Positions 1,099-15,560 are shown, numbered from the stretch's first letter. The stretch: 18,596 nucleotides of DNA from a virus (IMGVR_UViG_3300029107_000039), one strand, 5' to 3'. Translations and numbers: made by a program. Notes: generated from the letters alone by a model not told the origin.

Positions 1099-2119
1099 CT
1101 AGTCGTAGGATACGGCAAATATGGCTTTGCTTTGGACTTCTCCTGGCTGTAGTGCTTCCTCATTCACGCGGACATATTTCGCGGTAATCGGGAAGGTGTA
1201 CTGATTCTCAATGGCCGCCATTTTAGTTAGTTTGTTCATCAGAGTATCACCCAGCTTTAGCTGGTGTCGTTGCGTTACCATTATAAATCTGGAACCCAAC
1301 CCCCTTAGCACCATTAAGCGATGTGTTTTTCAGAATGGTTCCACTATCATCCCATTCACCGCGCGCAACTTTAAAAGTCACTGGATTAGTCGTGACGTTA
1401 TAAACACTGTCACAATTTAAAACCAGATCTATAGAACCTGATTTTGTGTTATTGGCAGATTGCATCTCACTTATCGTTGTTTCTGGCATTCTTATTTCGT
1501 AAGTCGGTTGCGAGAAACTACAGGTTGTAGGTTTGTGTTTTGTTATATTAACATTTAAATTCTGTTGATAATCAGCATCAGTTGGTAACTTGTTGCCCCA
1601 CCAACAAAGTAAATAAATGAAGGCATTACTATAGCAAAGTTTATCAAAGAAGTTATTTTCAAATGGAAAGACAACCGCAGGAGCATTCAAGATGAATGAA
1701 TTAGAATATACTGTTTGAACATTCGCATTACTGTCAGGCGATTTTATATATGAAGCTGTTAATGCTATGCTTTTATTATTAATAGTATCGTTAACTGAAT
1801 AAGTCTTCCTGCCTCCCGTATCAACAGGAAATCCATCTCCGACATCAAGATTAAACTTAATATAAATTGATTGATTGCTGTTTTGATTTTCTTTCATCTC
1901 TACAACATAATTATCTAATGTTTTAAGCACATTTACCTTATCTTGAGTCGAATTACATGTAAATTCTCCCGTCAGATTAGGAGAAAATGTAACCGTTGCA
2001 TTTCCCGCAGTTAAGTCTAAATTAACCCCCTGTATTGCAGTAGAATTTCCGTTGATAGTACATTTAGCCTGCCCCCAAAATGGCAAAGCCAGTAGAAACA
2101 AAAACCAATATTTCTTCAT
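1099..2119 (-). pseudogene. Fimbrial tip adhesin (two-domain, FimH-like pilin-domain C-terminus), split by an apparent +1 frameshift near 1247-1252
   Basis: ORF 1247-2140 starts with a signal peptide at the ATG at 2119 (MKKYWFLFLLALPFWGQA, AAGGA RBS) and ends ...GVGFQIYNGNATTPAKAG-TGA. Skipping one nucleotide at GCT GGG (T) GAT continues into ORF 1099-1314 as ...DTLMNKLTKMAAIENQYTFPITAKYVRVNEEALQPGEVQSKAIFAVSYD, which resembles a fimbrial pilin-domain C-terminus (FimH ...LTANYARTGGQVTAGNVQSIIGVTFVYQ, from memory). Could be a true pseudogene or a sequence error. Confidence 0.6.
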
Positions 2120-2130
2120 AAACAAATCCT

Positions 2131-4617
2131 TTAGCGACAAATATAAACTTTATTCTCATCAATAACGTTATCAAAGGTAATAGTGCAGAATTGTTCCTGC
2201 TGTTTATTAACCGAGACGCGAATCGCCGCGGGAACATCATTGGTGCGAATAAATATCCGACTTCCCTGTCCTACCAAGCCCACATTGTTGCCGCTTTCAT
2301 CTTCAACCTCATAACCAAACGGCAACGGAGAGCCATCAGGGCGTTGGGAGATGAAATACCAAGGCTTGCGTTTATCAGTCTCAAACTGCGTCATCACTAC
2401 CGCACCACGATAAGGAACGGTGTTTTTACGGTTACCCAGTAGCGCCACATCGCTTTTACTGTCGGCAATATCCAACATCAACGTATTTTCACGATACGGC
2501 GTCAGGTTGTCATAAATAGCGTAGCCTCTGCTATCCGTGGTCAGGTAACGATATCCCTGCACCGCTGCTCCCTCCAGTCCCGGCGCTTTGACGATGGCGA
2601 ACGTATCAGAAAGTCTGGGAGCCAGTGCCACCCCGTCCGACCACGCGACTAAACCGCCTTGAATATTACCGCTAATCTGTTGATATCTTTTCGACTGGCT
2701 ATAGCTGCCACCAATGGTCGCCAATGGCGCACGCCAGGTCAGGTTTCCACCTGCGGTTGTTTCGCTACCCTGTTGCTGATGGCTTAAGTTAGCCCCGTAG
2801 CTGAACTGATCGCGACTCCCCGCTACACCGCTGAGACTGGTATTATTCGACCGATAGCCGTCTTTATCAAAAGTGGTCGAGTTAGAAACAAATAAATCTC
2901 GTCGTTTTTCAGTGATTCCATCGCCCCACGAGAAGGGAATTGAGAAATATAAGTTAATGCGTCTATCTTCGCGGTTATCTTCATCGTAAGTCTGGCTAAC
3001 AGACAAGGTATAACTAAGGCGTTCCCAGGAGTTCGAATAGCTGAGTTGATAATCTTTCCCTGTCCCGCTGCGTTCCCAATAATCCCGCCATTGACCGCTG
3101 ACCGACAGATATCCCCAATCATCTGGTAATGACTGGTTTATATTTACAGAAAAGCTGTTCTTGCGACCAAAATCGTACTGATAATAGTCGGCAATGTCAT
3201 AAACAGAGTCATCTTCTCGATTATATCTATTCCTGTTATTTGCCCATACGTGATCGTTAAAAGTACGATAATCCCGAGAGGAGTAACGCCAGGCCGCCAG
3301 AGAAAATTGCGTCCCACTCTGTGAGAGATATTTGTTCCAGGCAATCTGATAACTTTGACCATTAAATACATCACCGTTATCTTGTTCACTGTGGGAATGG
3401 GTAAAATCAACCGATACAGCACCAATCGGTGTATTCCATCCCGTGCCGAGAACAAACGATGAGTAATTATCAGACAACTGCGTGCCAGCATAGAGAGTCA
3501 GCAAATTATTAAGGCCATACTGATAGCTTCCCTGAATAAAATCCGACTGATTGCTGGCTCCCTCAATACGACTACGTCCGGCAGCAAATTCATATTTCGA
3601 AACGCCCGGTTGCAACATATTTGGTACAGATGAATAAGGTACACGATAACGCGATACCGAACCGTCAGCTTCTTTAACAGTAACTTCCAGATCGGCACCA
3701 CCACCAGCAAGTTGCAAATCATCAATGGCGAATGGACCTGGTGGAACCTCCTTCTGGTAAATAACAAAACCATTTTGTTCTATAGTGACGAGTGCGTTGC
3801 TCTGGGCAATTCCTCGCACTATAGGAGTAAAATTCTGTTTAGAGTTCGGCAACATCTGCATATCGCGCCAGAGGCGTACCCCGCGAAAACGCACGGAGTC
3901 AAAAACATCAGAGCCGGTATACATTTCACCAGCACGCAATGTGCCAAGAATTTGTGGAATTCCGCGCTCCAGATATAACGTGTTACTCTTCCATTTACCG
4001 CTGCTCTGGTCACTTTTCGTATAATTGGCATTTGAATGCAACTGCCAGCCCAGAAGATTCAAACCACTGTTCAGATTTAAATAGCTACTTTTATTATCTC
4101 CTCCGTGCTTATAATTACTGTAATACTGACTGGCATAATAAGATGTATATAATGCGTTAATCCCGCGATCCCATGCCTCAGGCGGGACATATCCGCGTTC
4201 ATACTCAACGACATAGGCTTGGGGTACACTTAACTTCAGGTTAAAATGCCCAATATCATAGTCAACGCTGCCGCCCTGTACCGCTTCCCGAAGTGGTACA
4301 CATTCTACGCTTTTATCGATATTAATGCCTTCTGTGAGGATACCTATTTGCTTTAACTGCTCCCAGGATAAACATGTTGCATCCGGATCATCTTTAATAT
4401 CGACATTATAATGTCCGCGCCACTGATTATTCAGGTATACATCCATATCATAGATACCGGGCATCGGCTTATTACTATCGATATGATAGTCAGAAATTTT
4501 TTCCCCATTTAATCCGCCAATCATAAAATGGGTGTCAAATGTTTCATCTTCCGCCCATGCAGACGAAGTTGCCAACACCGACAGGATAGCCAGCGTAATA
4601 GAATTAAGTTTAGACAT
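2131..4617 (-). CDS. Fimbrial outer-membrane usher protein
   Basis: About 828 aa from the ATG at 4617 (MSKLNSITLAILSVLATSSAWA signal peptide; CAGGGA RBS). Length and composition are typical of chaperone-usher ushers, with a C-terminal Cys pair (CTITFDNVIDENKVYICR). Sits between the chaperone and adhesin genes. Confidence 0.9.
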   Translation of the reverse strand: MSKLNSITLAILSVLATSSAWAEDETFDTHFMIGGLNGEKISDYHIDSNKPMPGIYDMDVYLNNQWRGHYNVDIKDDPDATCLSWEQLKQIGILTEGINIDKSVECVPLREAVQGGSVDYDIGHFNLKLSVPQAYVVEYERGYVPPEAWDRGINALYTSYYASQYYSNYKHGGDNKSSYLNLNSGLNLLGWQLHSNANYTKSDQSSGKWKSNTLYLERGIPQILGTLRAGEMYTGSDVFDSVRFRGVRLWRDMQMLPNSKQNFTPIVRGIAQSNALVTIEQNGFVIYQKEVPPGPFAIDDLQLAGGGADLEVTVKEADGSVSRYRVPYSSVPNMLQPGVSKYEFAAGRSRIEGASNQSDFIQGSYQYGLNNLLTLYAGTQLSDNYSSFVLGTGWNTPIGAVSVDFTHSHSEQDNGDVFNGQSYQIAWNKYLSQSGTQFSLAAWRYSSRDYRTFNDHVWANNRNRYNREDDSVYDIADYYQYDFGRKNSFSVNINQSLPDDWGYLSVSGQWRDYWERSGTGKDYQLSYSNSWERLSYTLSVSQTYDEDNREDRRINLYFSIPFSWGDGITEKRRDLFVSNSTTFDKDGYRSNNTSLSGVAGSRDQFSYGANLSHQQQGSETTAGGNLTWRAPLATIGGSYSQSKRYQQISGNIQGGLVAWSDGVALAPRLSDTFAIVKAPGLEGAAVQGYRYLTTDSRGYAIYDNLTPYRENTLMLDIADSKSDVALLGNRKNTVPYRGAVVMTQFETDKRKPWYFISQRPDGSPLPFGYEVEDESGNNVGLVGQGSRIFIRTNDVPAAIRVSVNKQQEQFCTITFDNVIDENKVYICR

Positions 4618-4631
4618 AATCAATCCCTGAT

Positions 4632-5312
4632 CTATTTGACGGTTTTTATTTTTTCACTCAAATAGTTTCCATTATCATCAATCAGCGTAACATTGTAATG
4701 GCTAACAACGGAGGCCGTGGTGACGGTCTGTTCTGACCAGGGAGCTAGTACCAGCGTTTCTTTATTTACTTTGGTATTACCTGTCAGTTCGGGAATAGTT
4801 ATCCAGTTCGCTGAATTATTTTTTATATTGATACCACCACTGACAGGTCTGATATTCAGTCGAGAAAAACTCCCTTTATCGACACCTGCTATACCTTCCG
4901 GACGATAAATAAATTTAATGCGGTTTTGCATCGCGAATTTAATCTGGTTTTTACTCTCATTTTTCTCACTATTAGGTGGAATATCCAGGACATTGAGAAA
5001 GAACAAGCTTTCGCGATCTTTAGGTAGGGTATTCGTCAGTTGCTTAATTTTAAGTTGCTGCCCCCCTCCTCCTTTTACGTGAGCTACCGGTGGCGTCAGC
5101 ACAAACGGAACATGAATTTTTTCTGGGGGCAGGCTGGTATCGCCATCATCAATCCACGACTGAATCAGAGCACTGCGCTCACCTTCATTCATTAATTGAA
5201 CGGTAATCTCTTTTTTCTGTTCTGGATAAATAACGCGAGTGCCGTAGATATAGACTCCGCCCCACACAGGCGTGACCATGCCGACCAGCAAAAAGGCTAT
5301 TAACTTTTTCAT
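4632..5312 (-). CDS. Periplasmic fimbrial chaperone (PapD-like)
   Basis: 226 aa from the ATG at 5312 (AAGGAG RBS 8 nt upstream). Signal peptide MKKLIAFLLVGMVTPVWG. PapD-family-like N-terminal region (TRVIYPEQKKEITVQLMNEGERSALIQSWIDDGD). Confidence 0.9.
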   Translation of the reverse strand: MKKLIAFLLVGMVTPVWGGVYIYGTRVIYPEQKKEITVQLMNEGERSALIQSWIDDGDTSLPPEKIHVPFVLTPPVAHVKGGGGQQLKIKQLTNTLPKDRESLFFLNVLDIPPNSEKNESKNQIKFAMQNRIKFIYRPEGIAGVDKGSFSRLNIRPVSGGINIKNNSANWITIPELTGNTKVNKETLVLAPWSEQTVTTASVVSHYNVTLIDDNGNYLSEKIKTVK

Positions 5313-5333
5313 GGCAACACTCCTTGTTGTAAA

Positions 5334-5352
5334 ATATCGGCGGCAGCCGCCG
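5334..5352 (-). other. Intercistronic hairpin between the major-subunit and chaperone genes
   Basis: ATCGGCGGC-a-GCCGCCGAT, a perfect 9-bp GC-rich inverted repeat between the subunit stop (5365) and the chaperone start (5312), with no strong T-run. Resembles the mRNA-stabilising or attenuating stem-loops found after major pilin genes. Confidence 0.4.
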
Positions 5353-5364
5353 ATAAGCAAAGTA

Positions 5365-5907
5365 TTAATCTGTTACGACAGTCATTGTCAACGCAGATTT
5401 AACATCACCAGAGGTCACTGAAGTATCAGATTTTGCATATCTTGCACTAAAGTTAAGCGTATATAAGTCATTCGTATCTTTCCCATTTAATTCAATAACT
5501 CCATCCTTTGTAATTCTCTTTTCCTCATCATTATTAACATAATAGACAGCAAACCCAGCGCCATTATTCGAAGCAGTATTAACCGTAATATTGTCATAAG
5601 AGTCAACAAATTGCGAACTAGAAAACGTAATTCTTGGCGTTTTATCTCCGGTACATTTAACTTTCAGAGGCACGGTAGTTTTATTTGAATAAGTATCAAC
5701 GGTACTGCCAACAGTTACATTTTCGAATTGATCAGCACCAATTTCGTTCATCGCAATTGTTGCAGTAGTACCGTCAATAAATTGACATGTAGTCCCCACG
5801 ACTTTACCGGTAATAATTAACTCCCCCTGTTGATTCCCTTCTGCAAATGCTCCTGCACTCATAAAAAGAGATGATAATACCGCAACTGCAATAATTGAAT
5901 GTTTCAT
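5365..5907 (-). CDS. Fimbrial major subunit (pilin)
   Basis: 180 aa. Signal peptide MKHSIIAVAVLSSLFMSAGAFA. Cys pair (TCQF ... KVKCTG) typical of pilins. First gene of the operon, with AAGGA RBS; followed by chaperone, usher and adhesin. Confidence 0.85.
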   Translation of the reverse strand: MKHSIIAVAVLSSLFMSAGAFAEGNQQGELIITGKVVGTTCQFIDGTTATIAMNEIGADQFENVTVGSTVDTYSNKTTVPLKVKCTGDKTPRITFSSSQFVDSYDNITVNTASNNGAGFAVYYVNNDEEKRITKDGVIELNGKDTNDLYTLNFSARYAKSDTSVTSGDVKSALTMTVVTD

Positions 5908-6323: not shown

Positions 6324-6878
6324 TCAAAACCAGGGAATAGTTGCTGTTGCGCTTAATCCATAACTACTGAATTCCCCTTTCACCGGTTCAGTGAGCAAAT
6401 CACCATGACGGATAAACAGCTTGAACTGTTGCTGACTCGATAAACTCTTCATATTGAGAAAGGGTAAATCGGTCCGCCGTTCAGTTTGCGTCGCCAGTCG
6501 CTCAATTGCCTGTTCTTTAGTGAGCCAGCCCTTTTTTACTGAACGCCTTAACAGACGCAGGGGGTTACTTTTAACCTGCACACGGCTTACCACTCGCCAG
6601 CCTTTTATTTCAGGAATAGGAGTGACAGGTGAACATTGGCAATAGTCCGTAAGTCCTTTACGCCACGTTGAGGCTTCAAGCGCCTGCAATGCCGGGGCGC
6701 TGCCGTGTAAGCGTAAACGCGCTCCCGGCGTAACATTCACGTCCGGGAAACTCACGCCGATATCACCTTGCCCTCTTGCGCCTAATGCCCGGTGCAATTT
6801 GGCAAATAACGCTGCCATCAACATTTCACTCGAAAATTCAGGATCTGGCAGAACGCGGATCTCAAGGTAGTGCTCCAT
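6324..6878 (-). CDS. cas6f: Csy4 / Cas6f crRNA endoribonuclease
   Basis: 184 aa from the ATG at 6878 (AAGGAG RBS): MEHYLEIRVLPDPEF...AKLHRALG (conserved His)...FIRHG...YGLSATATIPWF. Closely resembles Pseudomonas Csy4 as recalled. The ORF track extends to 6920 using an upstream alternative start. Confidence 0.9.
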   Translation of the reverse strand: MEHYLEIRVLPDPEFSSEMLMAALFAKLHRALGARGQGDIGVSFPDVNVTPGARLRLHGSAPALQALEASTWRKGLTDYCQCSPVTPIPEIKGWRVVSRVQVKSNPLRLLRRSVKKGWLTKEQAIERLATQTERRTDLPFLNMKSLSSQQQFKLFIRHGDLLTEPVKGEFSSYGLSATATIPWF

Positions 6879-6888
6879 TGGCAGCTCC

Positions 6889-7890
6889 TTATTCCGCTTT
6901 CTCACCAAAGACACCGCCACGGATCAGCACTGCCATCACGTAGTGCTGTTGATCAACGTCTGGTTTCATCCCTTTAGTCACCCAATTGTCCAGTAAGGTA
7001 TAAAAATCGAGTTTTTCTTTCGGTTGGCGGCAGGCCACACCGCGACTGGTTACAGAACCGTAAGGTTCCACGGCGATAGCCCCCAACTCATCAACCTTCG
7101 GATGCCAGGTGTCAATAGTACGTAAAGCGTTGCCAATTTTTTGGGAGTGAATACCGGCAATGCCTGCAACCTGGTACAACACGCGACTTTTGCTACTGTT
7201 GCTGTCGAGCACCAGTTCCTGTGATGGGAAGACTTCTTGCCCGGCACCGAGGCGAACCTGCGCTTCAACGGTAAGCATCACCCACTCTTTTCCGCTTAAT
7301 CCTTGTTCAATTATTGTCGCCAGTTCTGTGACGCTACTCTGGCCTTGATCAAATTGACGCAAGGAGAAGTCATGACTGTTAAAAGTCCAGGACGAATCAT
7401 TAGCAGTAACTTTCACCTGGATCTGCTCAGCACCAATGCGGTTGCGCCACAAAAAACGACCATTTGCCAGATTCAGCGCATAGCGAAGCGCCAGCTCTTT
7501 AAAACCATGCTCGCTGATATAGCCGTCAATAACGTCGGAAAGCGCCTCCTGATAGGCCATATCATTACATACTGAAGGTGAAGATAAATTACCCAGCACT
7601 CGCAGCGTAAACACCACTTTTAGCGTATCAGCATCTACCGGAAGCGAGGCTACATCTACCCGCTGCAAGTTGGCTTTTTGGATTTCAGCATCCAGTTTGG
7701 TGGGGTCACTGGTAATCGTGTTTTTCAGGCGATTAGAAATGGTTCCGCGAACCGCTTTTTCCTGAATCTCAATGGGTTGCCATTCATTTCCTTGCCAGTT
7801 ACCTGCGTACATCGCCGCGTCAGACGTTGCCAGTTTGCGTTCAAATGCCAGTACCGACGCCGTTTTTATTGCTACAGGGGCCTTTGCCAT
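6889..7890 (-). CDS. cas7f: Csy3 / Cas7f Cascade backbone subunit
   Basis: 333 aa from the ATG at 7890 (AAGGAC RBS): [20 protein letters not shown]...[10 protein letters not shown]...LIRGGVFGE. Csy3-like. Stop at 6889, 11 nt before the csy4 start. Confidence 0.9.
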
Positions 7891-7900
7891 AATTATGTCC

Positions 7901-8824
7901 TTATTCTGAATCGTCATCTTCATTAGTAGTAGGGTCGTCAACGAGTGGTATTGCCGAGCAATAGTAGCCAGTGTCCGTCGTACGATAGCGCCACATCAGC
8001 GGTTGCAAATCAGTAATGCGATGTAATCCACGCCATTCGCCAATGCCATAAACCGCTTCGGCAAAGGCAAATGGCGTCACGGTATCGCGCGCATTTTCAA
8101 CTTCACCGGGAGCGTAAACAGGAGATATGCGTTGGTAACCGCACATTAACGGTACCAGGAAACCAGGCATTGGCTTCGGCTGGTATACCCATTGTGCGCT
8201 GTTGTCTTCTGCCGGAGATTCGGCCTGATATTTAATCGTGGCAAAATCAAGCCAGGCATCAAGCAACGATATGTCGGGATGTTGTTGGTGATGTTCAGCC
8301 AGCCATTCGCTGCGGTCGTAAAGCGCGTAACCTGGCATTAAACGCCAGATGATTTTACGCAGTTGCTTTTCATCTTCAGGCGCATGAAAAAGCTGAGGAT
8401 CGCGCATGTCAACAATGCTGCCGCCCGCCAGTTTGTGGCTCTGGCAGAGCATTTTCAGATGGTCACAAAGGGCTTTTCTACCGTATTCACCATTGGTAAT
8501 TTCGCCATTACATTCAATCAGCAGAGAGACCGTCAGGTGCATACGCCCCTCTTCATTAAATGAGGCGGTTTTACCTTCTCTGGTTAGTGGATTACGGGTG
8601 AGAGCGAACTGAAAATCGCGCCCGGAGCTGTACGCCTGAATATGTTGTTCATGGCTAACGACCGCGCAACCGTCAAAACTTACGCCAAATTCATCCACCA
8701 CTTTGCGAGAAAGCGCATGAACATAGCCGAGAAAATGGGTCATCGACGGGAATCCCCAGGTCAACCCGGAGACAGCGTTGGCGTTTTCGATACGTACATG
8801 GGGTAACAAGAGCAGATAACTCAT
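7901..8824 (-). CDS. cas5f: Csy2 / Cas5f Cascade subunit
   Basis: 307 aa: [27 protein letters not shown]...NPLTREGK...LHLTVSLL...GEWRGLHRI. Csy2-like. Its ATG overlaps the csy1 stop (ATGA at 8821-8824). Confidence 0.9.
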
Positions 8825-10128
8825 TTCAGCGCCTCCTGCAAAACGGCTTCCATTTCACGCATCCGTTGAGCGAACAGGGACTGACTGCGCCACTCTTTTT
8901 GCTCGATAGCACCTACATCGAAACTGGCTTTTTTCAGGCGATAGTTCAGCCAGCGCGCGAAATCCTCGGCCACCTTACCCTGCCAGTCGTTTTTTTCACG
9001 CTCCAGTTTGAAAGCCTCATCTGACAGGCTTCGCCACGGATCCAGCCACAGTTGCTGGTGGCGCGGTAAGGCTGGTGATTGCGCGGACCATCCCTGCCAT
9101 TTTTCTTGTTGAAAAGAGGATGCCTGCATAAACAGCAAATCTATCAACTCATCAATATATTTCGCCCGTGTGGTACGGATATGAACATTATTTTTGTCAA
9201 CTTTCAGAAGATAGGTCATACGGGCGATAATGCCCGAGGCCGCCCGATTGAAATCGCCACGTAAGGCAAAAATACTGCGCATGTTTTGTGGTGCGCGATC
9301 CAGCGCCGCCCAGGTGGGCGGCATTGATGGCAACAGCCAGACACGGCCAACTCTGGCACTGTTTAGCAGGGAGATATTCTGTTGATTTCCACCTCCATAA
9401 TGCATCTCTGCAAGATTCGGGAAACGAATATCTGGCTGTGAGTGCCATTTACCTGCTTTGTGCGCATCGCGAATAGCTTTTGATTCCTCGCTAAAGCGCA
9501 CGGCAGTTAGCTTTTCATACATCACCTGTGCCAGCGAACTGGAAAACAGCGGGCAGAGCAGATGATAGCCATCATCGACAGGGAAATAGATTTGCTTCGA
9601 AAGTTTATGTGCTTTTATCCACTCCGAAGCATATGCTTCACTAAAGCATTCAACCCATTGTTTTAATTGTTCATCATCCAACGCAAAGGCATTTAATGAT
9701 TGATAATCACCACGTTTTAAGCTGGCGAGTAATGAATCACCGTTGGCTTCCGTTAGCAGTAGTTTTGCAACATCAAAAACGGCTGCATTGCCTTCAGCAT
9801 CCTCTTTAATAATTGCCAGTGATGCTGTATTTAAATATCCCTCGCTGACGAATTTCTCCAAATAACGCCCATATGCTTTGGAGTCACCATTACTATATTT
9901 TGCCCCGTGGGAGATTATCCTTATAGAACGAACACGTTTCGCCGCATCCGTTAACCAGTTACGTGGCAGGTAGCGTGCTTCGAGTTCCTGTCGCTCCAGA
10001 GCGATAACGCTGGCGTCCTCGCCCTGTTCCAACCGCTTTGCTGCTTCTTTTTCAAAGGCTTCGATCTTGGGTTGCCTTCGCGAAGCGATGTAGTCAGTGA
10101 TAAATTGTATTAGCGCCGTTTTTTCCAT
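8821..10128 (-). CDS. cas8f: Csy1 / Cas8f large Cascade subunit
   Basis: 435 aa. ATG at 10128 with AAGGAG RBS. Csy1-like motifs (KQIYFPV, GGGNQQNISLLNS, WLLPSMPP, QQLWLDPWR). First gene after the 324-nt gap following cas2-3. Confidence 0.9.
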   Translation of the reverse strand: MEKTALIQFITDYIASRRQPKIEAFEKEAAKRLEQGEDASVIALERQELEARYLPRNWLTDAAKRVRSIRIISHGAKYSNGDSKAYGRYLEKFVSEGYLNTASLAIIKEDAEGNAAVFDVAKLLLTEANGDSLLASLKRGDYQSLNAFALDDEQLKQWVECFSEAYASEWIKAHKLSKQIYFPVDDGYHLLCPLFSSSLAQVMYEKLTAVRFSEESKAIRDAHKAGKWHSQPDIRFPNLAEMHYGGGNQQNISLLNSARVGRVWLLPSMPPTWAALDRAPQNMRSIFALRGDFNRAASGIIARMTYLLKVDKNNVHIRTTRAKYIDELIDLLFMQASSFQQEKWQGWSAQSPALPRHQQLWLDPWRSLSDEAFKLEREKNDWQGKVAEDFARWLNYRLKKASFDVGAIEQKEWRSQSLFAQRMREMEAVLQEALK

Positions 10129-10195
10129 CTCGGCTCCTTTCGTTAATCCATCAAATTGAAGTTGCTCCCTGACTTCACTGAAAAATCTCCGTAGC

Positions 10196-10258
10196 CTAAC
10201 CAGACTTCAGTACAACGACACACACAGCAAAAGGGGCAACGCCCGTGGTGATAATCAT
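10196..10258 (-). other. Candidate 20-codon hydrophobic mini-ORF (MIITTGVAPFAVCVVVLKSG) with SD, immediately downstream of the crRNA-like target site
   Basis: Minus strand AGGTGA-actatcc-ATG ATT ATC ACC ACG GGC GTT GCC CCT TTT GCT GTG TGT GTC GTT GTA CTG AAG TCT GGT TAG. Below the 60-aa ORF-track threshold. Could be chance. Confidence 0.2.
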
Positions 10259-10268
10259 GGATAGTTCA

Positions 10269-10281
10269 CCTAGAGGTATCT
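10269..10281. promoter_or_regulatory. Predicted Cascade binding site: CC PAM plus 11-nt seed match to the spacer of the crRNA-like element
   Basis: Plus strand CC-TAGAGGTATCT at 10269-10281 equals PAM plus spacer positions 1-11 of the mini-array spacer (10400-10410). The match begins exactly at spacer position 1 and is lost from position 12 onward. Confidence 0.6.
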
Positions 10282-10288
10282 ACGTTTT

Positions 10289-10316
10289 AATCTAGTTAAA
10301 CCCATGAAATAACCAA
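10289..10316 (-). promoter_or_regulatory. Candidate minus-strand promoter whose predicted start abuts the Cascade target site (may drive the mini-ORF and/or csy1-4)
   Basis: Minus strand TTGGTT (plus 10311-10316), 16-nt spacer, TAGATT (plus 10289-10294); predicted TSS near 10281. Hexamers are weak; by-eye call only. Confidence 0.2.
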
Positions 10317-10342
10317 GAGTGATATTACCATGCATAAAATAT

Positions 10343-10371
10343 TTGCAACACAATGGTTTAATAACTAACAT
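10343..10371 (+). promoter_or_regulatory. Candidate plus-strand promoter for the crRNA-like RNA
   Basis: TTGCAA (10343-10348), 17-nt spacer, TAACAT (10366-10371); the predicted start falls inside the first pseudo-repeat, just before its hairpin. By-eye call only. Confidence 0.25.
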
Positions 10372-10452
10372 TCACGCACTGCCATCGGCAGCTTAGAAAT
10401 AGAGGTATCTCCGGATACGGACTTGTAAACTGCCGTACAGGCAGCTAACCCA
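10371..10452 (+). ncRNA. crRNA-like mini-array (pseudo-repeat, 25-nt spacer, pseudo-repeat), inverted relative to the cas genes; candidate Cre-type regulatory RNA
   Basis: Pseudo-repeat 1 (10371-10399) TTCAC-gca-CTGCC-atc-GGCAG-CTTAGAAA keeps the Cas6f hairpin stem and an exact 8-nt 5' handle. Spacer-like TAGAGGTATCTCCGGATACGGACTT (10400-10424). Pseudo-repeat 2 (10425-10452) GTAAA-CTGCCGTACAGGCAG-CTAACCCA has a perfect hairpin with degenerate flanks and ends at the cas2-3 stop codon. Confidence 0.65.
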
Positions 10453-13400
10453 TCACAGGTTGCGAAACACACCTAACCAGGGGTGATAACGCCAGTCATC
10501 GACCGCATCTTCTTCACTGGCCGGTACTCTCACTTCAGCAAACATTTCTCCAACACGCTGTATTTCACAACTTTGCTTATCAGCTAAATTCAACAAAACG
10601 TGTTGGTAATCCATCACGCCCCAGCAAGCGACGCCGCTGGCGCATCTCACCTCTTCTCGCCTGAAATTCCCTTGCGCTTTACGCTCGTTGTCGCCCGTGC
10701 GGGAATAGAAACGCGCTTCGCTTTCTTCATCATCCATATGCAGAAAAAACACTGCCTCCGGCAAAGGGGAATAACGAAATGGCGTCTGGCGCTGCATCCA
10801 GCCGTTCCAGCTTAGCGGTGCACGCCACCATTGCGCCGCCACCACATGTTTGCTTTTACTGCTCATCAATTCAGCGGATAAACGACTATGCTCAAGCTCC
10901 GCCAGTTTGTTGTCATTATTGGCAGACAGGATCCGCGGCAAGGCGTTAATCGTCCGGTAGTCCGCGATCGGAATCAGTTCGCAAATATCGTGGCTATTAA
11001 GCAAGTGTTCTTTTGTTTCGAAACCAGGCTTACAAAATGCGGGGGCTTTTTTCTGCAATGATTTGATATTACTACGCAAAATAACCAGATTCTCACTAGT
11101 CGGCACATTTCTACGGTGGCGCTGAATACGTCCGGCAAATTGAATTATCGAACGCATGGAGCTTGGTTCGATAATTCCCCAGTCCGCATCCCAGTCACGC
11201 CCCACCTCTATAACCGATGTCCCCAACACCACAAACAGATGGTGCGATTCCGGACGGTTATGTAAGGCTTCAGCAATATCCTCGTTGTTCCAGAAATCGA
11301 GTTCGTTATGGCGGGTAAAAGCGCGGTCCAGGCGCTTCTCAATATCTGAACGTACTGCCAGTGGATGTCGGGAGTGGTAAACACAATAATGAATGCAGAC
11401 ATCTTCTGGTGATGGAATGGCGATCAGGGCTTTGGTCACTGCGACCAGTGGATTGATATTCGCGAAGCGCACCAGGCCCAGCGAAACGGTTTTACCGCTT
11501 TCTTGCTGCTGGCGATGTGCCTGATGCAACTTCAGCATTTGCGCATGTACCGTCTGAGCCACGCTTTCGGTAACATCCTGAATCGCGTTTGATGCAGATG
11601 AAATAGAAGCAATACGTCCGAAATGCAGTCGTTCTTTTTCGGCCAACATTAACGCTCGTCGCGCAACAAACTTTTTGTGCGTCTCACGAAAAGTAGCGCC
11701 ATCGCCAATTTGTATGGCGTCGGCATCTTTTTCATCAAACCAGGCACAGCAAATATTGACGGGTCTGCCGTTCGTACCGCATGACGACTGCCACATTTTA
11801 CGCCCGGCAAGATAAGCCGCGAACAGCGCCTGAATCAGCCCTGGCGGCAACGTCGCGGAAGAAAGTAATACCCGCGTTCCCAACATTCCGGCCCAATTCA
11901 TCAGACGACATACTGCATGAAGATCGGCAATATCAAAGTCGTCAGGTTCATCGAGCACTAAATCGCTGGTTAACAAACGCAACATCGAAGGAAGCTGTTT
12001 TCCGCCTCGCACACCTTCGGTCGCAGAAATAAGATGATCAATGGTTGCTACCAGAATCGGTGCGCTTACTAACGCCTTAAGTTTGCTGTCATCCTTCAAC
12101 CATTTTTCCAGCGCCCCGGTATGCAGACTACCTTCATATTTAACAAACTGTTGCTCCTCTGCCAGCGATTCTTGCGAAGCACTTCCGCAATCATTGTCTG
12201 TTTTTTCCTGCTGCCACAGTTGCTTAACTGCCGCCGAACCAATCAGTACCGCCAGCTCATCCTCACCCAGTCCAAGCCGACTGCGCAGAGCATCGCCGGT
12301 TTGCAAAGTCAGCGTGCGCAATCCCAGCGCGACGGTAAAACGGCACCCTTCCCGCTCATCGGTAAGCGCATACATAATGCGGGCGTTAGCAAAGGTTTTA
12401 CCGCACCCCGTCGAGGCCATATTGACACCGAAAAAACCGTCTTCCCGGCTTCGCTCACGTAACGCACGTGCCACATCCCAGGCTTTATCCTGCCAACGAT
12501 ATTTCGCGTCTGTGGCCCGTTGGCTAAAGCCTTTATGTCGGGCAATTGCCGGAAGCGATGCACGTGTGTGCATCAGTTGCCGCCCAAGTAGATACGCATG
12601 ATGCGCGACGCCGACCAGATGCTCATCTACCCGTTGTTTGAGCGTGCCGCTCTGCCGATCGCTATTTGCCCAGACGATATAATTCGGGTCTTGCCATTTT
12701 TGCTGCGCGTCGTTAGATGAATAGTAGTGATCGGCAAGCATCAGGCAAAAACGCGCCATATGTAACGGAAACAGTTGCTCCATCTGCCCCCATTCCTTTA
12801 GGCCGATCGCGTTACACGCCCTACGGGCAATCTGACGCGCTTTTTCTCGCCAGCTCGCGCTTTGAAGCGGCGTTCCTGACGGAAATTGCCAGACTTGCTC
12901 GAAATCCTGTTGTGACCAGTCATTCTTACGGTGGTTAACGGCATTCCAGTCAGCATTGAGTTGTTTCTCCAGCCAACTATCACAGCCTTTACATGATTGT
13001 TCCGGTTGTGGCGAAAGATTCTCCGGCATTCGATGATGGGAAAGGATCAACCAGCCTACCGTTTTGGCGAGTGGTTGCAGCGAACTGAATGGACTATTTG
13101 AAAAATGAGGCGTGTCTTTTTGCAGGCACTCAAGGATCGCGGTTTCATCATCTGCCGTTAATTTCCCAAGTTTTTCCAGCCACACTTCGTCTGGCTGTTC
13201 ACCGACAAAAGCCTGAAAAAGCCGCAGCGAAATCCACTCATGCCGATAAGGCTGATAACTGCGGGCATTCTTTTGGGTCAGGCTTTGCTGAAAGCTGCGT
13301 CCTGCTTTACCAAAATCATGAAATAACCCAGCGATAGCCGCCAGCAGCGCAATACTTTCCGCGCACTGCCAGCGATTTTCTTCTTTTTTCACCAGGCTGG

Positions 13401-13686
13401 TTTGCGTTGTTCGATTTGTGGGAACGCGTCCCTGAGCATTAAAACGACGAATATTGCCGACAATCCACATCAACTCCGTTTGCCCATTCTTCTTCAGCCA
13501 GTGACAAGCCACTGCGGTATTTCGCCGGGCAGTTTTGCGCAGTAAACGGCGAAGTGTATTAACCCCTTCCAGAGTAATCACCGTTTGCCATGCGGCGTCA
13601 CCAGTGCGTTCGGCAAATTGATCAATAATACGGCAGCTCTCCACTCGAGCATTTTTTGTGCAGCGCGAGATAATCAGGACGTTCAT
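10453..13686 (-). CDS. cas3: Cas2-Cas3 fusion (type I-F signature nuclease-helicase)
   Basis: 1077 aa. N-terminal Cas2-like region, HD nuclease motif (LFHDFGKAG), helicase Walker A (STGCGKT) and DExD box (LVLDEPDD). Its ATG overlaps the cas1 stop (ATGA at 13683-13686). Confidence 0.95.
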   Translation of the reverse strand: MNVLIISRCTKNARVESCRIIDQFAERTGDAAWQTVITLEGVNTLRRLLRKTARRNTAVACHWLKKNGQTELMWIVGNIRRFNAQGRVPTNRTTQTSLVKKEENRWQCAESIALLAAIAGLFHDFGKAGRSFQQSLTQKNARSYQPYRHEWISLRLFQAFVGEQPDEVWLEKLGKLTADDETAILECLQKDTPHFSNSPFSSLQPLAKTVGWLILSHHRMPENLSPQPEQSCKGCDSWLEKQLNADWNAVNHRKNDWSQQDFEQVWQFPSGTPLQSASWREKARQIARRACNAIGLKEWGQMEQLFPLHMARFCLMLADHYYSSNDAQQKWQDPNYIVWANSDRQSGTLKQRVDEHLVGVAHHAYLLGRQLMHTRASLPAIARHKGFSQRATDAKYRWQDKAWDVARALRERSREDGFFGVNMASTGCGKTFANARIMYALTDEREGCRFTVALGLRTLTLQTGDALRSRLGLGEDELAVLIGSAAVKQLWQQEKTDNDCGSASQESLAEEQQFVKYEGSLHTGALEKWLKDDSKLKALVSAPILVATIDHLISATEGVRGGKQLPSMLRLLTSDLVLDEPDDFDIADLHAVCRLMNWAGMLGTRVLLSSATLPPGLIQALFAAYLAGRKMWQSSCGTNGRPVNICCAWFDEKDADAIQIGDGATFRETHKKFVARRALMLAEKERLHFGRIASISSASNAIQDVTESVAQTVHAQMLKLHQAHRQQQESGKTVSLGLVRFANINPLVAVTKALIAIPSPEDVCIHYCVYHSRHPLAVRSDIEKRLDRAFTRHNELDFWNNEDIAEALHNRPESHHLFVVLGTSVIEVGRDWDADWGIIEPSSMRSIIQFAGRIQRHRRNVPTSENLVILRSNIKSLQKKAPAFCKPGFETKEHLLNSHDICELIPIADYRTINALPRILSANNDNKLAELEHSRLSAELMSSKSKHVVAAQWWRAPLSWNGWMQRQTPFRYSPLPEAVFFLHMDDEESEARFYSRTGDNERKAQGNFRREEVRCASGVACWGVMDYQHVLLNLADKQSCEIQRVGEMFAEVRVPASEEDAVDDWRYHPWLGVFRNL

Positions 13687-14666: not shown

Positions 14667-14837
14667 AAACACATCCTGTGATTATTTTTATTTGAAGGAG
14701 TTAGGATTAGTACAGCATTGATTTCTGTGTGAGAAATTGATTCTCGTCGCAATTATCACAATTGTTATTGTGTGTCACAGCTAATGGTTCGGAGTTGAGA
14801 GCGCCATAACGCAGCTAAATTTCTGCCATCATCGTAT

Positions 14838-15406
14838 TTGTGAAACTGCCTGTACGGCAGTGAACTGAGGTGCTTTTGACGGCCGTCCATGCCTTTGCTT
14901 TCTAAGCTGCCTGTACGGCAGTGAACCAGAACTGGATCGACAATGAATTCGGGGATCTTTTCTAAGCTGCCTGTACGGCAGTGAACTACGACCTGTTAAA
15001 AACAGACAGTGACGGCATTTTCTAAGCTGCCTGTACGGCAGTGAACTTTTTTGAGGTTGATTATGAGTGAGCCAGCCTTTTCTAAGCTGCCTGTACGGCA
15101 GTGAACGTGGTTGGCATGGCGCTCCCTGAGTCGAAAGATTTCTAAGCTGCCTGTACGGCAGTGAACAGGCAGAAGAAGAAATGGATGTAACTCACAATTT
15201 TCTAAGCTGCCTGTACGGCAGTGAACAATAACGCCCGCGACGGCGACCGGTAAAACGTTTTCTAAGCTGCCTGTACGGCAGTGAACTAGCAACAGGTGCG
15301 GAAAGTGGCGCAATACCCTTTCTAAGCTGCCTGTACGGCAGTGAACGTGTTGTTAGCCGCGCCATGTGCTTTCCTCCGTTTCTAAGCTGCCTGTACGGCA
15401 GTGAAC
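14838..15406 (-). CRISPR. Type I-F CRISPR array B: 10 repeats including a degenerate leader-distal repeat, 9 spacers; upstream of cas1
   Basis: Repeats start at 14838 (degenerate: TTGTGAAA instead of TTTCTAAG), 14899, 14959, 15019, 15079, 15139, 15199, 15259, 15319, 15379. Spacers of 32-33 nt at 14866-14898, 14927-14958, 14987-15018, 15047-15078, 15107-15138, 15167-15198, 15227-15258, 15287-15318, 15347-15378. Leader on the right. Confidence 0.95.
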
Positions 15407-15560
15407 TCAAATACTACACGCTTAGCCCATTGTTAATAAAGCGAAACCAGCAAAATTCCTTGTCCAGCCCCTTTTTTATCCTTGCCTTCCAGCAGCATTA
15501 ATTATCAATAACTTACCTTCGCCCTCAAAAATAGGGTTTTTACCGCCCCACCTCACAAAC
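15407..15560 (-). promoter_or_regulatory. Leader of array B
   Basis: AT-rich sequence adjoining the last exact repeat; shares the CCCCTTTTTT-containing motif with the array A leader. Confidence 0.5.

What the first reader, a model, noticed from the sequence alone, without database searches (positions are those of the whole stretch)
10371..10452. Inverted crRNA-like mini-array in the cas2-3/csy1 gap (candidate Cre-type regulatory RNA)
The only long intergenic gap of the cas operon holds two degenerate I-F repeats flanking a 25-nt spacer-like sequence, on the strand opposite to both arrays and the cas genes. Both pseudo-repeats keep what Cas6f needs: the CTGCC/GGCAG hairpin stem (loop shortened to 3 nt in the first, perfect in the second) and, in the first, an exact CTTAGAAA 5' handle. 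The flanks have decayed, so it looks selected for processing and Cascade loading rather than for spacer acquisition. The spacer is 25 nt, not the 32-33 nt of every array spacer. This matches the architecture reported for crRNA-like Cas-regulating RNAs (CreA of CreTA modules, CreR autorepressors); those reports are cited from memory. I cannot tell whether this particular locus has been described.
Basis: partly seen in the sequence, partly recalled or inferred. Interest (0 to 1): 0.9.

Follow-up and report, generated by a model that had tools for sequence, protein, structure and literature searches.

The report
Self-regulating CRISPR mini-array in Escherichia
A two-repeat, CRISPR-like mini-gene inside the cas operon of an Escherichia type I-F system most likely makes a short guide RNA that sends the system's own surveillance complex to a matching site just upstream of its effector genes, holding their transcription down; the same kind of element is already known from Pseudomonas and Acinetobacter, so this is a well-supported new example, not a new mechanism.

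Summary
Window 10370-10452 (+ strand, antisense to the cas genes and both arrays) holds two degenerate I-F repeats around a 25-nt spacer. Spacer positions 1-11 match 10271-10281, a site preceded by the I-F PAM CC, 131 nt away in the same gap and 140 nt upstream of csy1. Spacer and target co-vary at position 5. Mismatches fall at positions 6 and 12, which type I complexes do not read. The spacer and second repeat are almost invariant in all 239 E. coli I-F genomes, while the flanks and csy1 diverge. A conserved promoter would start transcription at the first hairpin. The best reading is a crRNA-like regulatory RNA of about 53 nt. It would load into Csy and bind without cleaving at or just downstream of the csy promoter, so that the effector genes repress themselves (CreR-like). 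A CreTA-like toxin role for the small ORF next to the target is less likely: E. coli UTI89 has a broken csy2 and an identical gap. The class is already published (Shmakov 2023; Li laboratory). I found no description of the Escherichia member, and it is unannotated in RefSeq. Nothing was tested experimentally.

The parts
10343..10371 (+). Predicted promoter of the mini-array: -35 TTGCAA (10343-10348), 17-nt spacer, -10 TAACAT (10366-10371). The predicted start is near 10378, at the base of the psiR1 hairpin.
   Evidence: It is the top-scoring + strand sigma-70 candidate, at the same aligned position, in all 10 Escherichia haplotypes in my PWM scan. TAACAT and TTGC are invariant columns. The stricter built-in scan did not report it.
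10370..10399 (+). psiR1, the first degenerate repeat: hairpin CTGCC(10379-10383)-ATC-GGCAG(10387-10391), then the 5' handle CTTAGAAA (10392-10399).
   Evidence: Sequence. Rfam CRISPR-DR4 scores 19.8 bits on the + strand. The hairpin folds at -6.6 kcal/mol. The stem is kept and the loop varies between haplotypes.
10400..10424 (+). psiS, the 25-nt spacer-like guide TAGAGGTATCTCCGGATACGGACTT. It contains an internal 5-bp hairpin, GTATC-TCCG-GATAC.
   Evidence: It occurs once in the window. It is identical in 186 and differs by one base in 53 of the 239 E. coli I-F genomes. Only positions 5 and 6 vary. Fold.
10425..10452 (+). psiR2, the second degenerate repeat: GTAAA, a perfect hairpin at 10430-10444, and a decayed 3' end. 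It abuts the cas2-3 stop codon (10453-10455).
   Evidence: Rfam scores 22.7 bits. Fold is -8.6 kcal/mol, the same as an array repeat.
10392..10444 (+). Predicted mature crRNA-like RNA of 53 nt: 8-nt handle, 25-nt guide and 20-nt 3' hairpin.
   Evidence: Inferred from the known Cas6f cut site at the 3' base of the repeat hairpin. The published P. aeruginosa CreA2, with a 26-nt guide, is 54 nt by Northern blot and sRNA-seq. Not tested here.
10269..10295 (+). Target site: PAM CC (10269-10270) and protospacer 10271-10295. The guide pairs with the - strand at positions 1-11, 13, 14 and 17.
   Evidence: The exact CC+11-mer match has 0.01 expected in the window. PAM and seed columns are conserved inside a poorly conserved stretch. 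Position 5 co-varies with the spacer, and mismatches fall at positions 6 and 12.
10322..10330 (-). Candidate csy-sense promoter: extended -10 TGGTAATAT, with a predicted start near 10315. This would put the target at about +20 to +46. An alternative is TTGGTT-N16-TAGATT, whose -10 at 10289-10294 lies inside the protospacer.
   Evidence: PWM scan. TAATAT-like hexamer in all 10 haplotypes (TAATAT in 9, TAATGT in L009; the scan's best-scoring hexamer in the three LF82-type haplotypes is the overlapping TTTAAT). The alternative is found only in window-type haplotypes. Neither is mapped, and the built-in scan found nothing.
10196..10271 (-). Small ORF directly after the target. The SD AGGTGA (10266-10271) overlaps the PAM complement. 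ATG is at 10258-10256, the product is 20 aa (MIITTGVAPFAVCVVVLKSG), and the stop TAG is at 10198-10196.
   Evidence: SD, start codon and a hydrophobic N-terminus are kept in all 10 haplotypes: 27 aa in most, 37 aa in the LF82 type. Function is unknown, there is no Pfam or NCBIfam match, and belonging to the module is uncertain.
6324..10128 (-). csy1-csy2-csy3-cas6f. These genes encode the complex that would carry the RNA and the enzyme that would process it. They are also the likely regulated genes.
   Evidence: Pfam Cas_Csy1, Csy2, Csy3 and Csy4, with E-values from 1e-64 to 1e-147.

Best explanation
The mini-array is a gene for a crRNA-like regulatory RNA of the CreR / I-F1 regulatory mini-array kind.

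1. It is transcribed from its own promoter on the + strand, starting at the first hairpin.
2. Cas6f cuts after each GGCAG hairpin, giving an RNA of about 53 nt with a normal 5' handle, a 25-nt guide and a normal 3' hairpin.
3. Csy1-3 and Cas6f assemble on this RNA.
4. The complex recognises the CC PAM at 10269-10270 and pairs with about 13 of the first 14 guide positions on the - strand. That strand is the non-template strand for csy transcription.
5. Because the guide is short and pairing is partial, the R-loop stays too short to license Cas2-3. The complex therefore binds without cutting.
6. The bound complex blocks RNA polymerase that comes from the promoter just upstream, and probably also read-through from cas2-3. 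This lowers transcription of the small ORF and of csy1-cas6f. The effector thus represses itself, and repression should ease when Csy is titrated by array crRNAs or inhibited by anti-CRISPRs.

Shown here: the anatomy, the PAM-flanked match, covariation, conservation and the conserved promoter motif. Inferred: expression, processing, loading, repression and which promoter is hit.
For: **Evidence in this locus and its Escherichia relatives**
- The anatomy is confirmed.
- The CC-flanked 11-nt seed match lies 131 nt from the spacer and 140 nt upstream of the csy1 ATG, with 0.01 expected in the window.
- Spacer position 5 (G to T) co-varies with target position 5 (G to T) in one E. coli lineage. 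Positions 6 and 12 differ freely. In Escherichia sp. E1V33 pairing is 1-5, 7-11 and 13-15, with mismatches exactly at 6 and 12.
- Positions 10406-10441 are invariant in 10 haplotypes, while only 33-47% of columns in the neighbouring stretches are invariant.
- All 239 E. coli genomes with I-F csy1 carry the element. The guide is at least 96.8% identical in all of them, while the 5' half of csy1 is only 60-80% identical in 202.
- The promoter TTGC[CA][AG]-N17-TAACAT (TTGCCA in 7 haplotypes, TTGCAA in the window, TTGCAG in 2) is conserved in all haplotypes.

**Evidence at the level of the class**
- Of 77 distinct short-spacer I-F mini-arrays from metagenomes, 43 have a CC+seed target nearby, against about 0.5 when spacers are swapped between loci.
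- Mismatch rates are 72%, 70% and 69% at positions 6, 12 and 18, and at most 25% at positions 13-17.
- Two Serratia loci show a double covariation at positions 7-8.

**Published evidence**
- I-F1 mini-arrays between cas3 and cas8f are transcribed opposite to cas3 and target the cas8f promoter with a CC PAM. Repression was shown for P. aeruginosa YL84 (PMC10120712).
- In I-F1, short spacers still assemble and bind, but R-loops shorter than wild type do not trigger Cas2/3 (PMC7296934).
- The Acinetobacter I-F CreA target lies downstream of the promoter it represses (PMC10097628).
Against: - There are no expression, processing or repression data for this locus.
- The csy-sense promoter is not fixed. 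The built-in scan found no promoter on either strand. My PWM scan gives two moderate, mutually exclusive candidates.
- Pairing is at the short end of the class, with 13 effective base pairs.
- In the commonest E. coli haplotype the psiR1 stem is only 4 bp, at -4.0 kcal/mol.
- The invariance of the unpaired guide positions 12-25 is not explained by this model.
- A small ORF with its own SD lies between the target and csy1. The regulated product may therefore not be, or not only be, Csy.
Confidence: 0.62

Rival explanations
1. CreTA-type addiction module. The same RNA acts as an antitoxin (CreA). Its main job is to silence a toxin encoded right after the target. The toxin would be either the small hydrophobic ORF (20 aa here, 27-37 aa in E. 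coli) or its mRNA, and cells that lose Csy activity would be arrested.
For: - The layout matches published I-F CreTA modules. The ORF is divergent from the mini-array, lies directly downstream of the PAM-flanked target and has its own SD.
- SD, start codon and a hydrophobic N-terminus are kept in all 10 haplotypes, through three different SD/start configurations in an otherwise poorly conserved stretch.
- Serratia marcescens I-F loci have an intact, conserved 50-aa single-TM ORF in the same position. Other lineages have other small ORFs there.
- P. aeruginosa creT1 shares its promoter with the csy genes.
- In a UTI89 transposon screen, csy1 insertions were depleted during intracellular growth (log2FC -4.9, q about 0.1).
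Against: - E. coli UTI89 carries csy2 with an internal stop, yet its gap is 100% identical to that of LF82. Loss of Csy is therefore not lethal with this module.
- Insertions in csy3 and cas6f were tolerated in that strain.
- In the window the ORF is cut to 20 aa by a TGG-to-TAG change.
- The ORF has no consecutive proline codons, no 33-bp mini-ORF and no strong GC hairpin like the known I-F CreT RNAs. Only a 4-bp stem is present.
- Similarity to the Serratia protein is not significant: profile E-values of 0.016-0.18 among 1,023 ORFs, blastn E at least 0.7, and no similarity to Hok.
- The substitution pattern in the ORF shows no clear excess of synonymous changes.
Confidence: 0.17
2. The conserved hairpins act mainly in cis on the cas-sense (- strand) transcript. 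They would serve as a terminator, insulator or Cas6f-cleavable processing site between the cas1/cas2-3 and csy transcription units. The guide-like RNA would be incidental.
For: - The element starts 1 nt after the cas2-3 stop codon.
- The - strand RNA would carry three consecutive hairpins. The palindromic CTGCC/GGCAG stems read the same on both strands.
- Guide positions 12-25 are invariant without pairing to the target and include a hairpin.
- psiR1 and psiR2 can also pair with each other.
Against: - This does not explain the PAM-flanked seed match, its covariation, or the mismatch pattern at positions 6, 12 and 18 across 43 loci.
- No terminator-like site was found, and there are no T-runs after the hairpins.
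- It does not explain the conserved + strand promoter.
- It could be an added function rather than an alternative.
Confidence: 0.06
3. A decayed remnant of an inverted array or of a stray spacer-acquisition event, with no function.
For: Both pseudo-repeats are degenerate at their outer ends and score below the Rfam gathering threshold.
Against: - The element is present in 239 of 239 E. coli I-F genomes and in three other Escherichia species.
- Its core is nearly invariant while the flanks and csy1 diverge.
- The decay spares exactly the handle, the hairpins and the seed.
- The self-target has a PAM and co-varies with the spacer.
Confidence: 0.03

Closest known systems
Type I-F1 regulatory mini-arrays between cas3 and cas8f (Shmakov et al. 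2023, PMC10120712; validated for P. aeruginosa YL84)
   Same: The location, the orientation opposite to cas3, and the two-repeat structure with a handle-bearing repeat next to the seed are the same. So are the shortened spacer, the partial match with a CC PAM upstream of cas8f/csy1, and the mismatches at positions 6 and 12.
   Different: The genus, guide and target sequences differ, with no sequence similarity outside the repeat. Here the target seems to lie downstream of the best promoter candidate rather than within it. There is no experimental test.
CreR, Cas-regulating RNAs (Li laboratory, bioRxiv 10.1101/2023.03.10.532045; shown for I-B, I-E and V-A)
   Same: Both are degenerate mini-CRISPRs. 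psiR1 keeps the 5' handle and psiR2 keeps the 3' hairpin. The guide partly matches a PAM-flanked site next to the effector-gene promoter, and the proposed outcome is autorepression.
   Different: For I-F, CreR was only predicted there (their Figure S7; the species is not given in the text). In this locus a small ORF lies between the target and csy1, so the 'no cognate toxin' criterion is not clearly met.
P. aeruginosa I-F CreTA1 and CreTA2 (bioRxiv 10.64898/2026.06.02.729485)
   Same: Both lie in the cas2-3/csy1 gap. The guides are 20 or 26 nt with a CC PAM, mismatches fall at positions 6 and 12, and an SD-led ORF lies downstream of the target. creT1 shares its promoter with the csy genes.
   Different: The P. 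aeruginosa CreT is a 15-nt mini-ORF with two consecutive proline codons and a GC-rich hairpin. None of these features is present here. There the -35 box lies about 30 bp downstream of the target.
Acinetobacter I-F CreTA (PMC10097628) and CrePA (bioRxiv 10.1101/2024.01.05.574328)
   Same: Both lie in the cas3-csy1 gap. creA is divergent from the toxin gene, and the target has a CC PAM and lies downstream of the toxin promoter.
   Different: Their toxins are a 33-bp mini-ORF RNA with a start-codon hairpin, or a 107-aa KilAC protein. No counterpart to either is present here.
RNA anti-CRISPRs and viral crRNA-like RNAs (Racr, PMC10651486; Cracr, bioRxiv 10.1101/2024.10.29.618823)
   Same: They are repeat-derived small RNAs that load into or compete for Cas proteins. 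Some copy host regulatory guides.
   Different: Those are encoded on phages and plasmids. This element is chromosomal and lies inside the cas operon. I found no phage, plasmid or viral-contig copy.

Membership tests
crRNA-like regulatory mini-array of type I-F1 (Shmakov 2023) / CreR | Two repeat-like sequences flank a spacer-like sequence in a cas intergenic region, outside the arrays | tested here: met
   psiR1 10370-10399, spacer 10400-10424, psiR2 10425-10452, in the cas2-3/csy1 gap.
crRNA-like regulatory mini-array of type I-F1 (Shmakov 2023) / CreR | The repeat next to the seed keeps the 5' handle, and the hairpins needed by Cas6f are kept | tested here: met
   psiR1 has the exact CTTAGAAA handle. 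Both hairpins fold on their own, at -6.6 and -8.6 kcal/mol. The stems are conserved across haplotypes.
crRNA-like regulatory mini-array of type I-F1 (Shmakov 2023) / CreR | The PAM-proximal part of the guide matches a site with the cognate PAM near the effector genes | tested here: met
   CC plus 11 of 11 bases at 10269-10281, 140 nt upstream of csy1, with 0.01 expected by chance. Covariation at position 5.
crRNA-like regulatory mini-array of type I-F1 (Shmakov 2023) / CreR | The target lies in or next to the promoter of the effector genes | tested here: inconclusive
   There are two moderate csy-sense promoter candidates. One is upstream of the target and one overlaps it. The built-in scan found none. 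No transcription start sites are mapped.
crRNA-like regulatory mini-array of type I-F1 (Shmakov 2023) / CreR | The RNA is expressed, processed by Cas6f and loaded into Csy, and repression depends on Csy and the guide | not testable with these tools
   This needs Northern blot or sRNA-seq, co-purification and reporter assays.
CreR specifically | No cognate toxin gene | tested here: inconclusive
   A small SD-led ORF follows the target. However, a natural csy2-null E. coli strain with an identical gap is viable.
CreTA (CRISPR-regulated toxin-antitoxin) | A toxin gene lies downstream of the CreA target and is divergent from creA | tested here: inconclusive
   An ORF is in the right place and orientation. 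There is no evidence that it is toxic.
CreTA (CRISPR-regulated toxin-antitoxin) | Loss of effector activity releases growth arrest or killing | tested here: not met
   This is indirect evidence for the E. coli LF82-type version only. UTI89 has csy2 with an internal stop and an identical gap, and insertions in csy3 and cas6f are tolerated. It was not tested for the window's own version.
Known I-F CreT RNA toxins (P. aeruginosa, Acinetobacter) | SD plus a 15-nt mini-ORF with two consecutive proline codons and a GC-rich hairpin, or a 33-bp mini-ORF with a start-codon hairpin | tested here: not met
   The ORF is 20-37 codons long and has single prolines only. The only nearby hairpin is a 4-bp stem.
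RNA anti-CRISPR (Racr/Cracr) | Encoded on a phage, plasmid or other mobile element | tested here: not met
   The element is chromosomal, between clpA and the cas genes. There was no hit in phages, plasmids or viral contigs.

The most novel reading that the evidence does not exclude
The guide-controlled transcript first encodes a small hydrophobic membrane peptide (20-37 aa in Escherichia, with a positional counterpart of 50 aa in Serratia marcescens and 49 aa in another lineage). This peptide would be a protein toxin or a 'csy0' accessory factor, co-regulated with the effector. That would define a new, peptide-based kind of CRISPR-repressed toxin in Enterobacterales, and the frameshifted and truncated Escherichia versions would be stages of its decay into a pure autorepressor. 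The evidence also leaves room for a second function of the invariant, unpaired part of the guide.
Probability: 0.15. Interest if true: 0.6.

Novelty: new member of a known kind. Interest (0 to 1): 0.35.

Why it matters
If this is confirmed, the type I-F system of Escherichia would have a built-in RNA-guided feedback loop that nobody has annotated. It is found in the B2-type strains UTI89, LF82, S88 and NC101, in the E. coli type strain, and in several non-coli species. RefSeq lists no feature at this position in any of the 239 genomes.

- **Tractable test system:** it would give a genetically tractable host in which to test how crRNA-like RNAs sense crRNA load and anti-CRISPR attack.
- **Known but unexplained behaviour:** it may explain why this system is reported as constitutively active but at low level.
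- **Practical relevance:** it bears on the design of I-F-based tools or phage therapies against these strains.
- **Usable screen:** the class-level statistics obtained here (43 of 77 loci with a self-target, and neutral positions 6, 12 and 18) provide a simple way to find more such elements.

It does not change the concept, which is already established.

Tried and rejected
- **Built-in promoter/terminator scan of 10050-10600:** it found nothing. I replaced it with my own PWM scan over 10 haplotypes. This fixed the + strand promoter but not the csy-sense one.
- **Mobile copies of the element:** BLAST against phages and plasmids, and a viral-contig pattern scan for a phage copy of the guide, gave no hits.
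- **Relatives in genome contigs:** the Csy1-based scan returned only four loci. A repeat-based pattern scan of metagenomes gave the diversity I needed.
- **Homology of the small ORF:** none of the searches gave a significant match.
  - Pfam and NCBIfam found nothing.
  - BLASTP against Hok found nothing.
  - blastn of the Escherichia leader against the Serratia leader gave E at least 0.7.
  - A profile of the Serratia protein gave only a 9-11-residue match, with E 0.016-0.18.
  - I therefore withdrew my first impression that the Escherichia ORF is a frameshifted homologue of the Serratia gene. Only the positional analogy and a short motif, VCxVxLKP, remain.
- **A second target for the invariant PAM-distal guide:** there is none in the window. 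No other long match exists in any of 5,426 E. coli genomes.
- **Whole-precursor folding:** the MFE structure pairs psiR1 with psiR2. I treat this as a consequence of the two stems being identical, not as evidence for a structure.
- **Literature:** I found no paper describing the Escherichia element. The supplements of Shmakov 2023 are not held.

Full report
[quoted passage not shown] Its order is clpS, clpA, an array of 10 repeats (14836-15408), cas1, cas2-3 (10453-13686), a 324-nt gap (10129-10452), csy1, csy2, csy3, cas6f, four further genes, and a second array of 8 repeats (96-548). Pfam confirms all six cas genes. The clpA gene is 93-94% identical to that of every E. coli genome, so the host is an Escherichia species other than E. 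coli.

**The observation.** On the + strand, 10370-10452 reads as follows:
- ATTCACGCA-CTGCC-ATC-GGCAG-CTTAGAAA (first pseudo-repeat, psiR1)
- TAGAGGTATCTCCGGATACGGACTT (25-nt spacer)
- GTAAA-CTGCC-GTACA-GGCAG-CTAACCCA (second pseudo-repeat, psiR2)

The array repeat is GTTCACTGCCGTACAGGCAGCTTAGAAA on the - strand, with 32-33-nt spacers. Of the 19 CTGCC-N5-GGCAG hairpins in the window, only the one at 10430-10444 has the repeat's sense on the + strand. Rfam's CRISPR-DR4 model finds both pseudo-repeats on the + strand at 22.7 and 19.8 bits, below its threshold of 35. The array repeats score 50.1 bits on the - strand. Each hairpin folds on its own.

The first 11 nt of the spacer recur at 10271-10281 on the same strand. 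They are preceded by CC, the type I-F PAM, and lie 131 nt from the spacer and 140 nt upstream of the csy1 start codon (0.01 matches expected in the window). Pairing continues at positions 13, 14 and 17 and is broken at position 12.

**Relatives within Escherichia.**
- All 239 E. coli complete genomes that have I-F csy1 also have the gap and the mini-array, once each and on the chromosome. RefSeq annotates nothing there.
- E. whittamii and Escherichia sp. E1V33 have it too. Pseudocitrobacter faecalis (Csy1 66% identical) has no gap.
- In an alignment of 10 distinct haplotypes, 10406-10441 is invariant. In the stretches between the target and psiR1, only 33-47% of columns are invariant.
- The 31 nt covering the guide and the start of psiR2 are identical in 186 E. 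coli genomes and differ by one base in 53. The 5' half of csy1 is only 60-80% identical in 202 of the same genomes.
- Only guide positions 5 and 6 vary. Position 5 changes from G to T together with target position 5 in one lineage. Position 6 differs freely between guide and target. In Escherichia sp. E1V33 the mismatches fall exactly at positions 6 and 12. Type I complexes flip out every sixth base, as cited for I-F1 in PMC10120712.

**The wider class.** A metagenome scan for I-F repeat pairs separated by a short spacer returned 97 loci.
- Of 77 distinct guides, 43 have a CC-flanked seed match within 900 nt. Where the gene is on the contig, the match nearly always lies between the mini-array and csy1. 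Swapping guides between loci gives about 0.5 such matches.
- Mismatch rates are 72%, 70% and 69% at positions 6, 12 and 18. They are at most 25% at positions 13-17.
- Two Serratia loci differ at guide positions 7-8 (TG versus CA), and their targets differ in the same way.
- In several lineages a -35 box (TGTTGACA-like) begins 1-3 nt after the PAM complement.

**Promoters.** My position-weight scan of the 10 haplotypes puts TTGC[CA][AG]-N17-TAACAT (10343-10371, + strand) first in every one of them. Transcription would then start near 10378, at the foot of the first hairpin. On the csy-sense strand the picture is not clear.
- One candidate is an extended -10, TGGTAATAT, at 10330-10322. A TAATAT-like hexamer is kept in all 10 haplotypes (TAATAT in 9, TAATGT in L009). 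It would put the target at about +20 to +46.
- The other is TTGGTT-N16-TAGATT, whose -10 lies inside the protospacer. It is found only in window-type haplotypes.
- The built-in scan reports no promoter or terminator here.

For csy-sense transcription the guide pairs with the non-template strand.

**Mechanism.** The most likely reading is a crRNA-like regulatory RNA. Cas6f would cut after each hairpin and give an RNA of about 53 nt (10392-10444). The comparable P. aeruginosa CreA2, with a 26-nt guide, is 54 nt and assembles into a Csy complex. In a type I-F1 system, complexes with short spacers still bind DNA, but R-loops shorter than the wild-type length do not trigger Cas2/3 (PMC7296934). A 25-nt guide with about 13 paired bases should therefore bind without cutting. 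Bound at 10269-10295, the complex would block transcription towards the small ORF and csy1-cas6f. Expression, processing, loading and repression are all inferred.

**Autorepressor or antitoxin?** Directly after the target, on the csy-sense strand, lies an SD (AGGTGA, overlapping the PAM complement) and an ORF. It encodes 20 aa here, 27 aa in most Escherichia haplotypes and 37 aa in the LF82 type. The N-terminus is hydrophobic, and the SD and start codon are kept through three different sequence configurations. This is the place and orientation of the toxin gene in published I-F CreTA modules. Serratia marcescens has an intact, conserved 50-aa single-TM ORF in the same position.

Several points argue against a toxin here.
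- The ORF has none of the features of the known I-F CreT RNAs.
- The window's copy is truncated by a nonsense change.
- Similarity to the Serratia protein is not significant.
- E. coli UTI89 carries csy2 with an internal stop while its gap is identical to that of LF82. In a published transposon screen of that strain, insertions in csy3 and cas6f were tolerated. Only csy1 insertions were depleted, and only in one infection condition, at q about 0.1.

I therefore rate autorepression at about 0.6 and a toxin-antitoxin role at about 0.17.

**Comparison with what is known.** The class is published.
- Shmakov et al. describe I-F1 mini-arrays in the 'typical location between cas3 and cas8', transcribed opposite to cas3. 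Their guides partly match the cas8 promoter next to a CC PAM, with mismatches at positions 6 and 12. They showed repression for P. aeruginosa YL84.
- The Li laboratory described CreR autorepressors for I-B, I-E and V-A, and predicted them for I-F. The same laboratory described I-F CreTA and CrePA modules in Acinetobacter and P. aeruginosa, all in the cas3-csy1 gap.
- I found no paper that describes the Escherichia element. It may be listed in supplementary tables that I could not read.

This is a new member of a known kind.

**Unexplained.**
- Guide positions 12-25 and the 5' part of psiR2 are invariant although they do not pair with the target. There is no second target in the window and no other long match in E. 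coli.
- The guide contains its own 5-bp hairpin. The 3' half of psiR1 is 85% complementary to the 5' half of psiR2.
- An invariant CATG at 10303-10306 reads ATG, then 0 or 1 codon, then TAA on the + strand in every haplotype.

Noticed in passing
window 1247-5907 (- strand): A four-gene chaperone-usher fimbrial operon (fimbrial subunit, PapD-like chaperone, usher, second fimbrial protein) sits between cas6f and the downstream CRISPR array. In E. coli UTI89 that interval holds only a tRNA-Ser gene.
   Followed up: partly
window 10196-10271 (- strand): A small SD-led hydrophobic ORF lies immediately after the guide's target. It is 20 aa here because of a TGG-to-TAG change, 27 aa in most Escherichia haplotypes, and 37 aa in the LF82 type through a 1-nt insertion and a GTG start. 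There is no family match and its function is unknown.
   Followed up: yes
L108 6001-6153; L088, L092; L038, L056: Serratia marcescens I-F loci encode a conserved 50-aa single-TM hypothetical protein (e.g. QFF90867.1) between the mini-array target and csy1, 20 nt upstream of csy1. Another lineage has a 49-aa ORF with a similar C-x4-KP motif. Homology to the Escherichia ORF is not significant.
   Followed up: yes
L017, L025, L029, L034, L067, L103, L107; L019/L081, L050; L104: Other metagenomic I-F loci carry different small ORF families between the mini-array target and csy1. These are a 76-86-aa family with no domain match, a 51-60-aa family with a C-terminal TM segment, and a DUF2188 protein. 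They are candidates for further CRISPR-repressed genes.
   Followed up: partly
window 10406-10441: The unpaired, PAM-distal part of the guide and the 5' part of psiR2 are invariant across Escherichia. The guide has an internal hairpin (GUAUC-UCCG-GAUAC), and psiR1 (10386-10398) is 85% complementary to psiR2 (10423-10435). No explanation was found.
   Followed up: partly
window 10303-10312: An invariant CATG lies within a poorly conserved stretch. On the + strand it reads ATG, then 0 or 1 codon, then TAA in every haplotype (ATGAAATAA, ATGCAATAA, ATGCTATAA, ATGTAA), with no SD.
   Followed up: no
L111 (E. coli UTI89, NC_007946.1 887000-896500): csy2 is annotated as a pseudogene with an internal stop. 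The cas2-3/csy1 gap, with mini-array, target and 37-aa ORF, is 100% identical to that of LF82.
   Followed up: yes
L096 versus window: One metagenomic contig has a cas2-3 product 99% identical to the window's, but a Csy1 only 87% identical. In E. coli the 5' half of csy1 falls into two very different classes (90-95% and 60-80%). This suggests exchange of adaptation and effector modules, with a breakpoint near the gap.
   Followed up: no
L038, L056, L088, L092, L020, L063, L041: In these I-F lineages a near-consensus -35 box (TGTTGACA, TGTTGATA or similar) begins 1-3 nt after the complement of the PAM. The Csy complex would therefore sit directly against the promoter. In Escherichia this promoter is missing and the ORF's SD takes its place.
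   Followed up: partly
window 14836-14867: The repeat of the cas1-proximal array that lies farthest from clpA is degenerate at its handle end (…GGCAGTTTCACAAAT on the - strand). This fits a leader on the clpA side.
   Followed up: no
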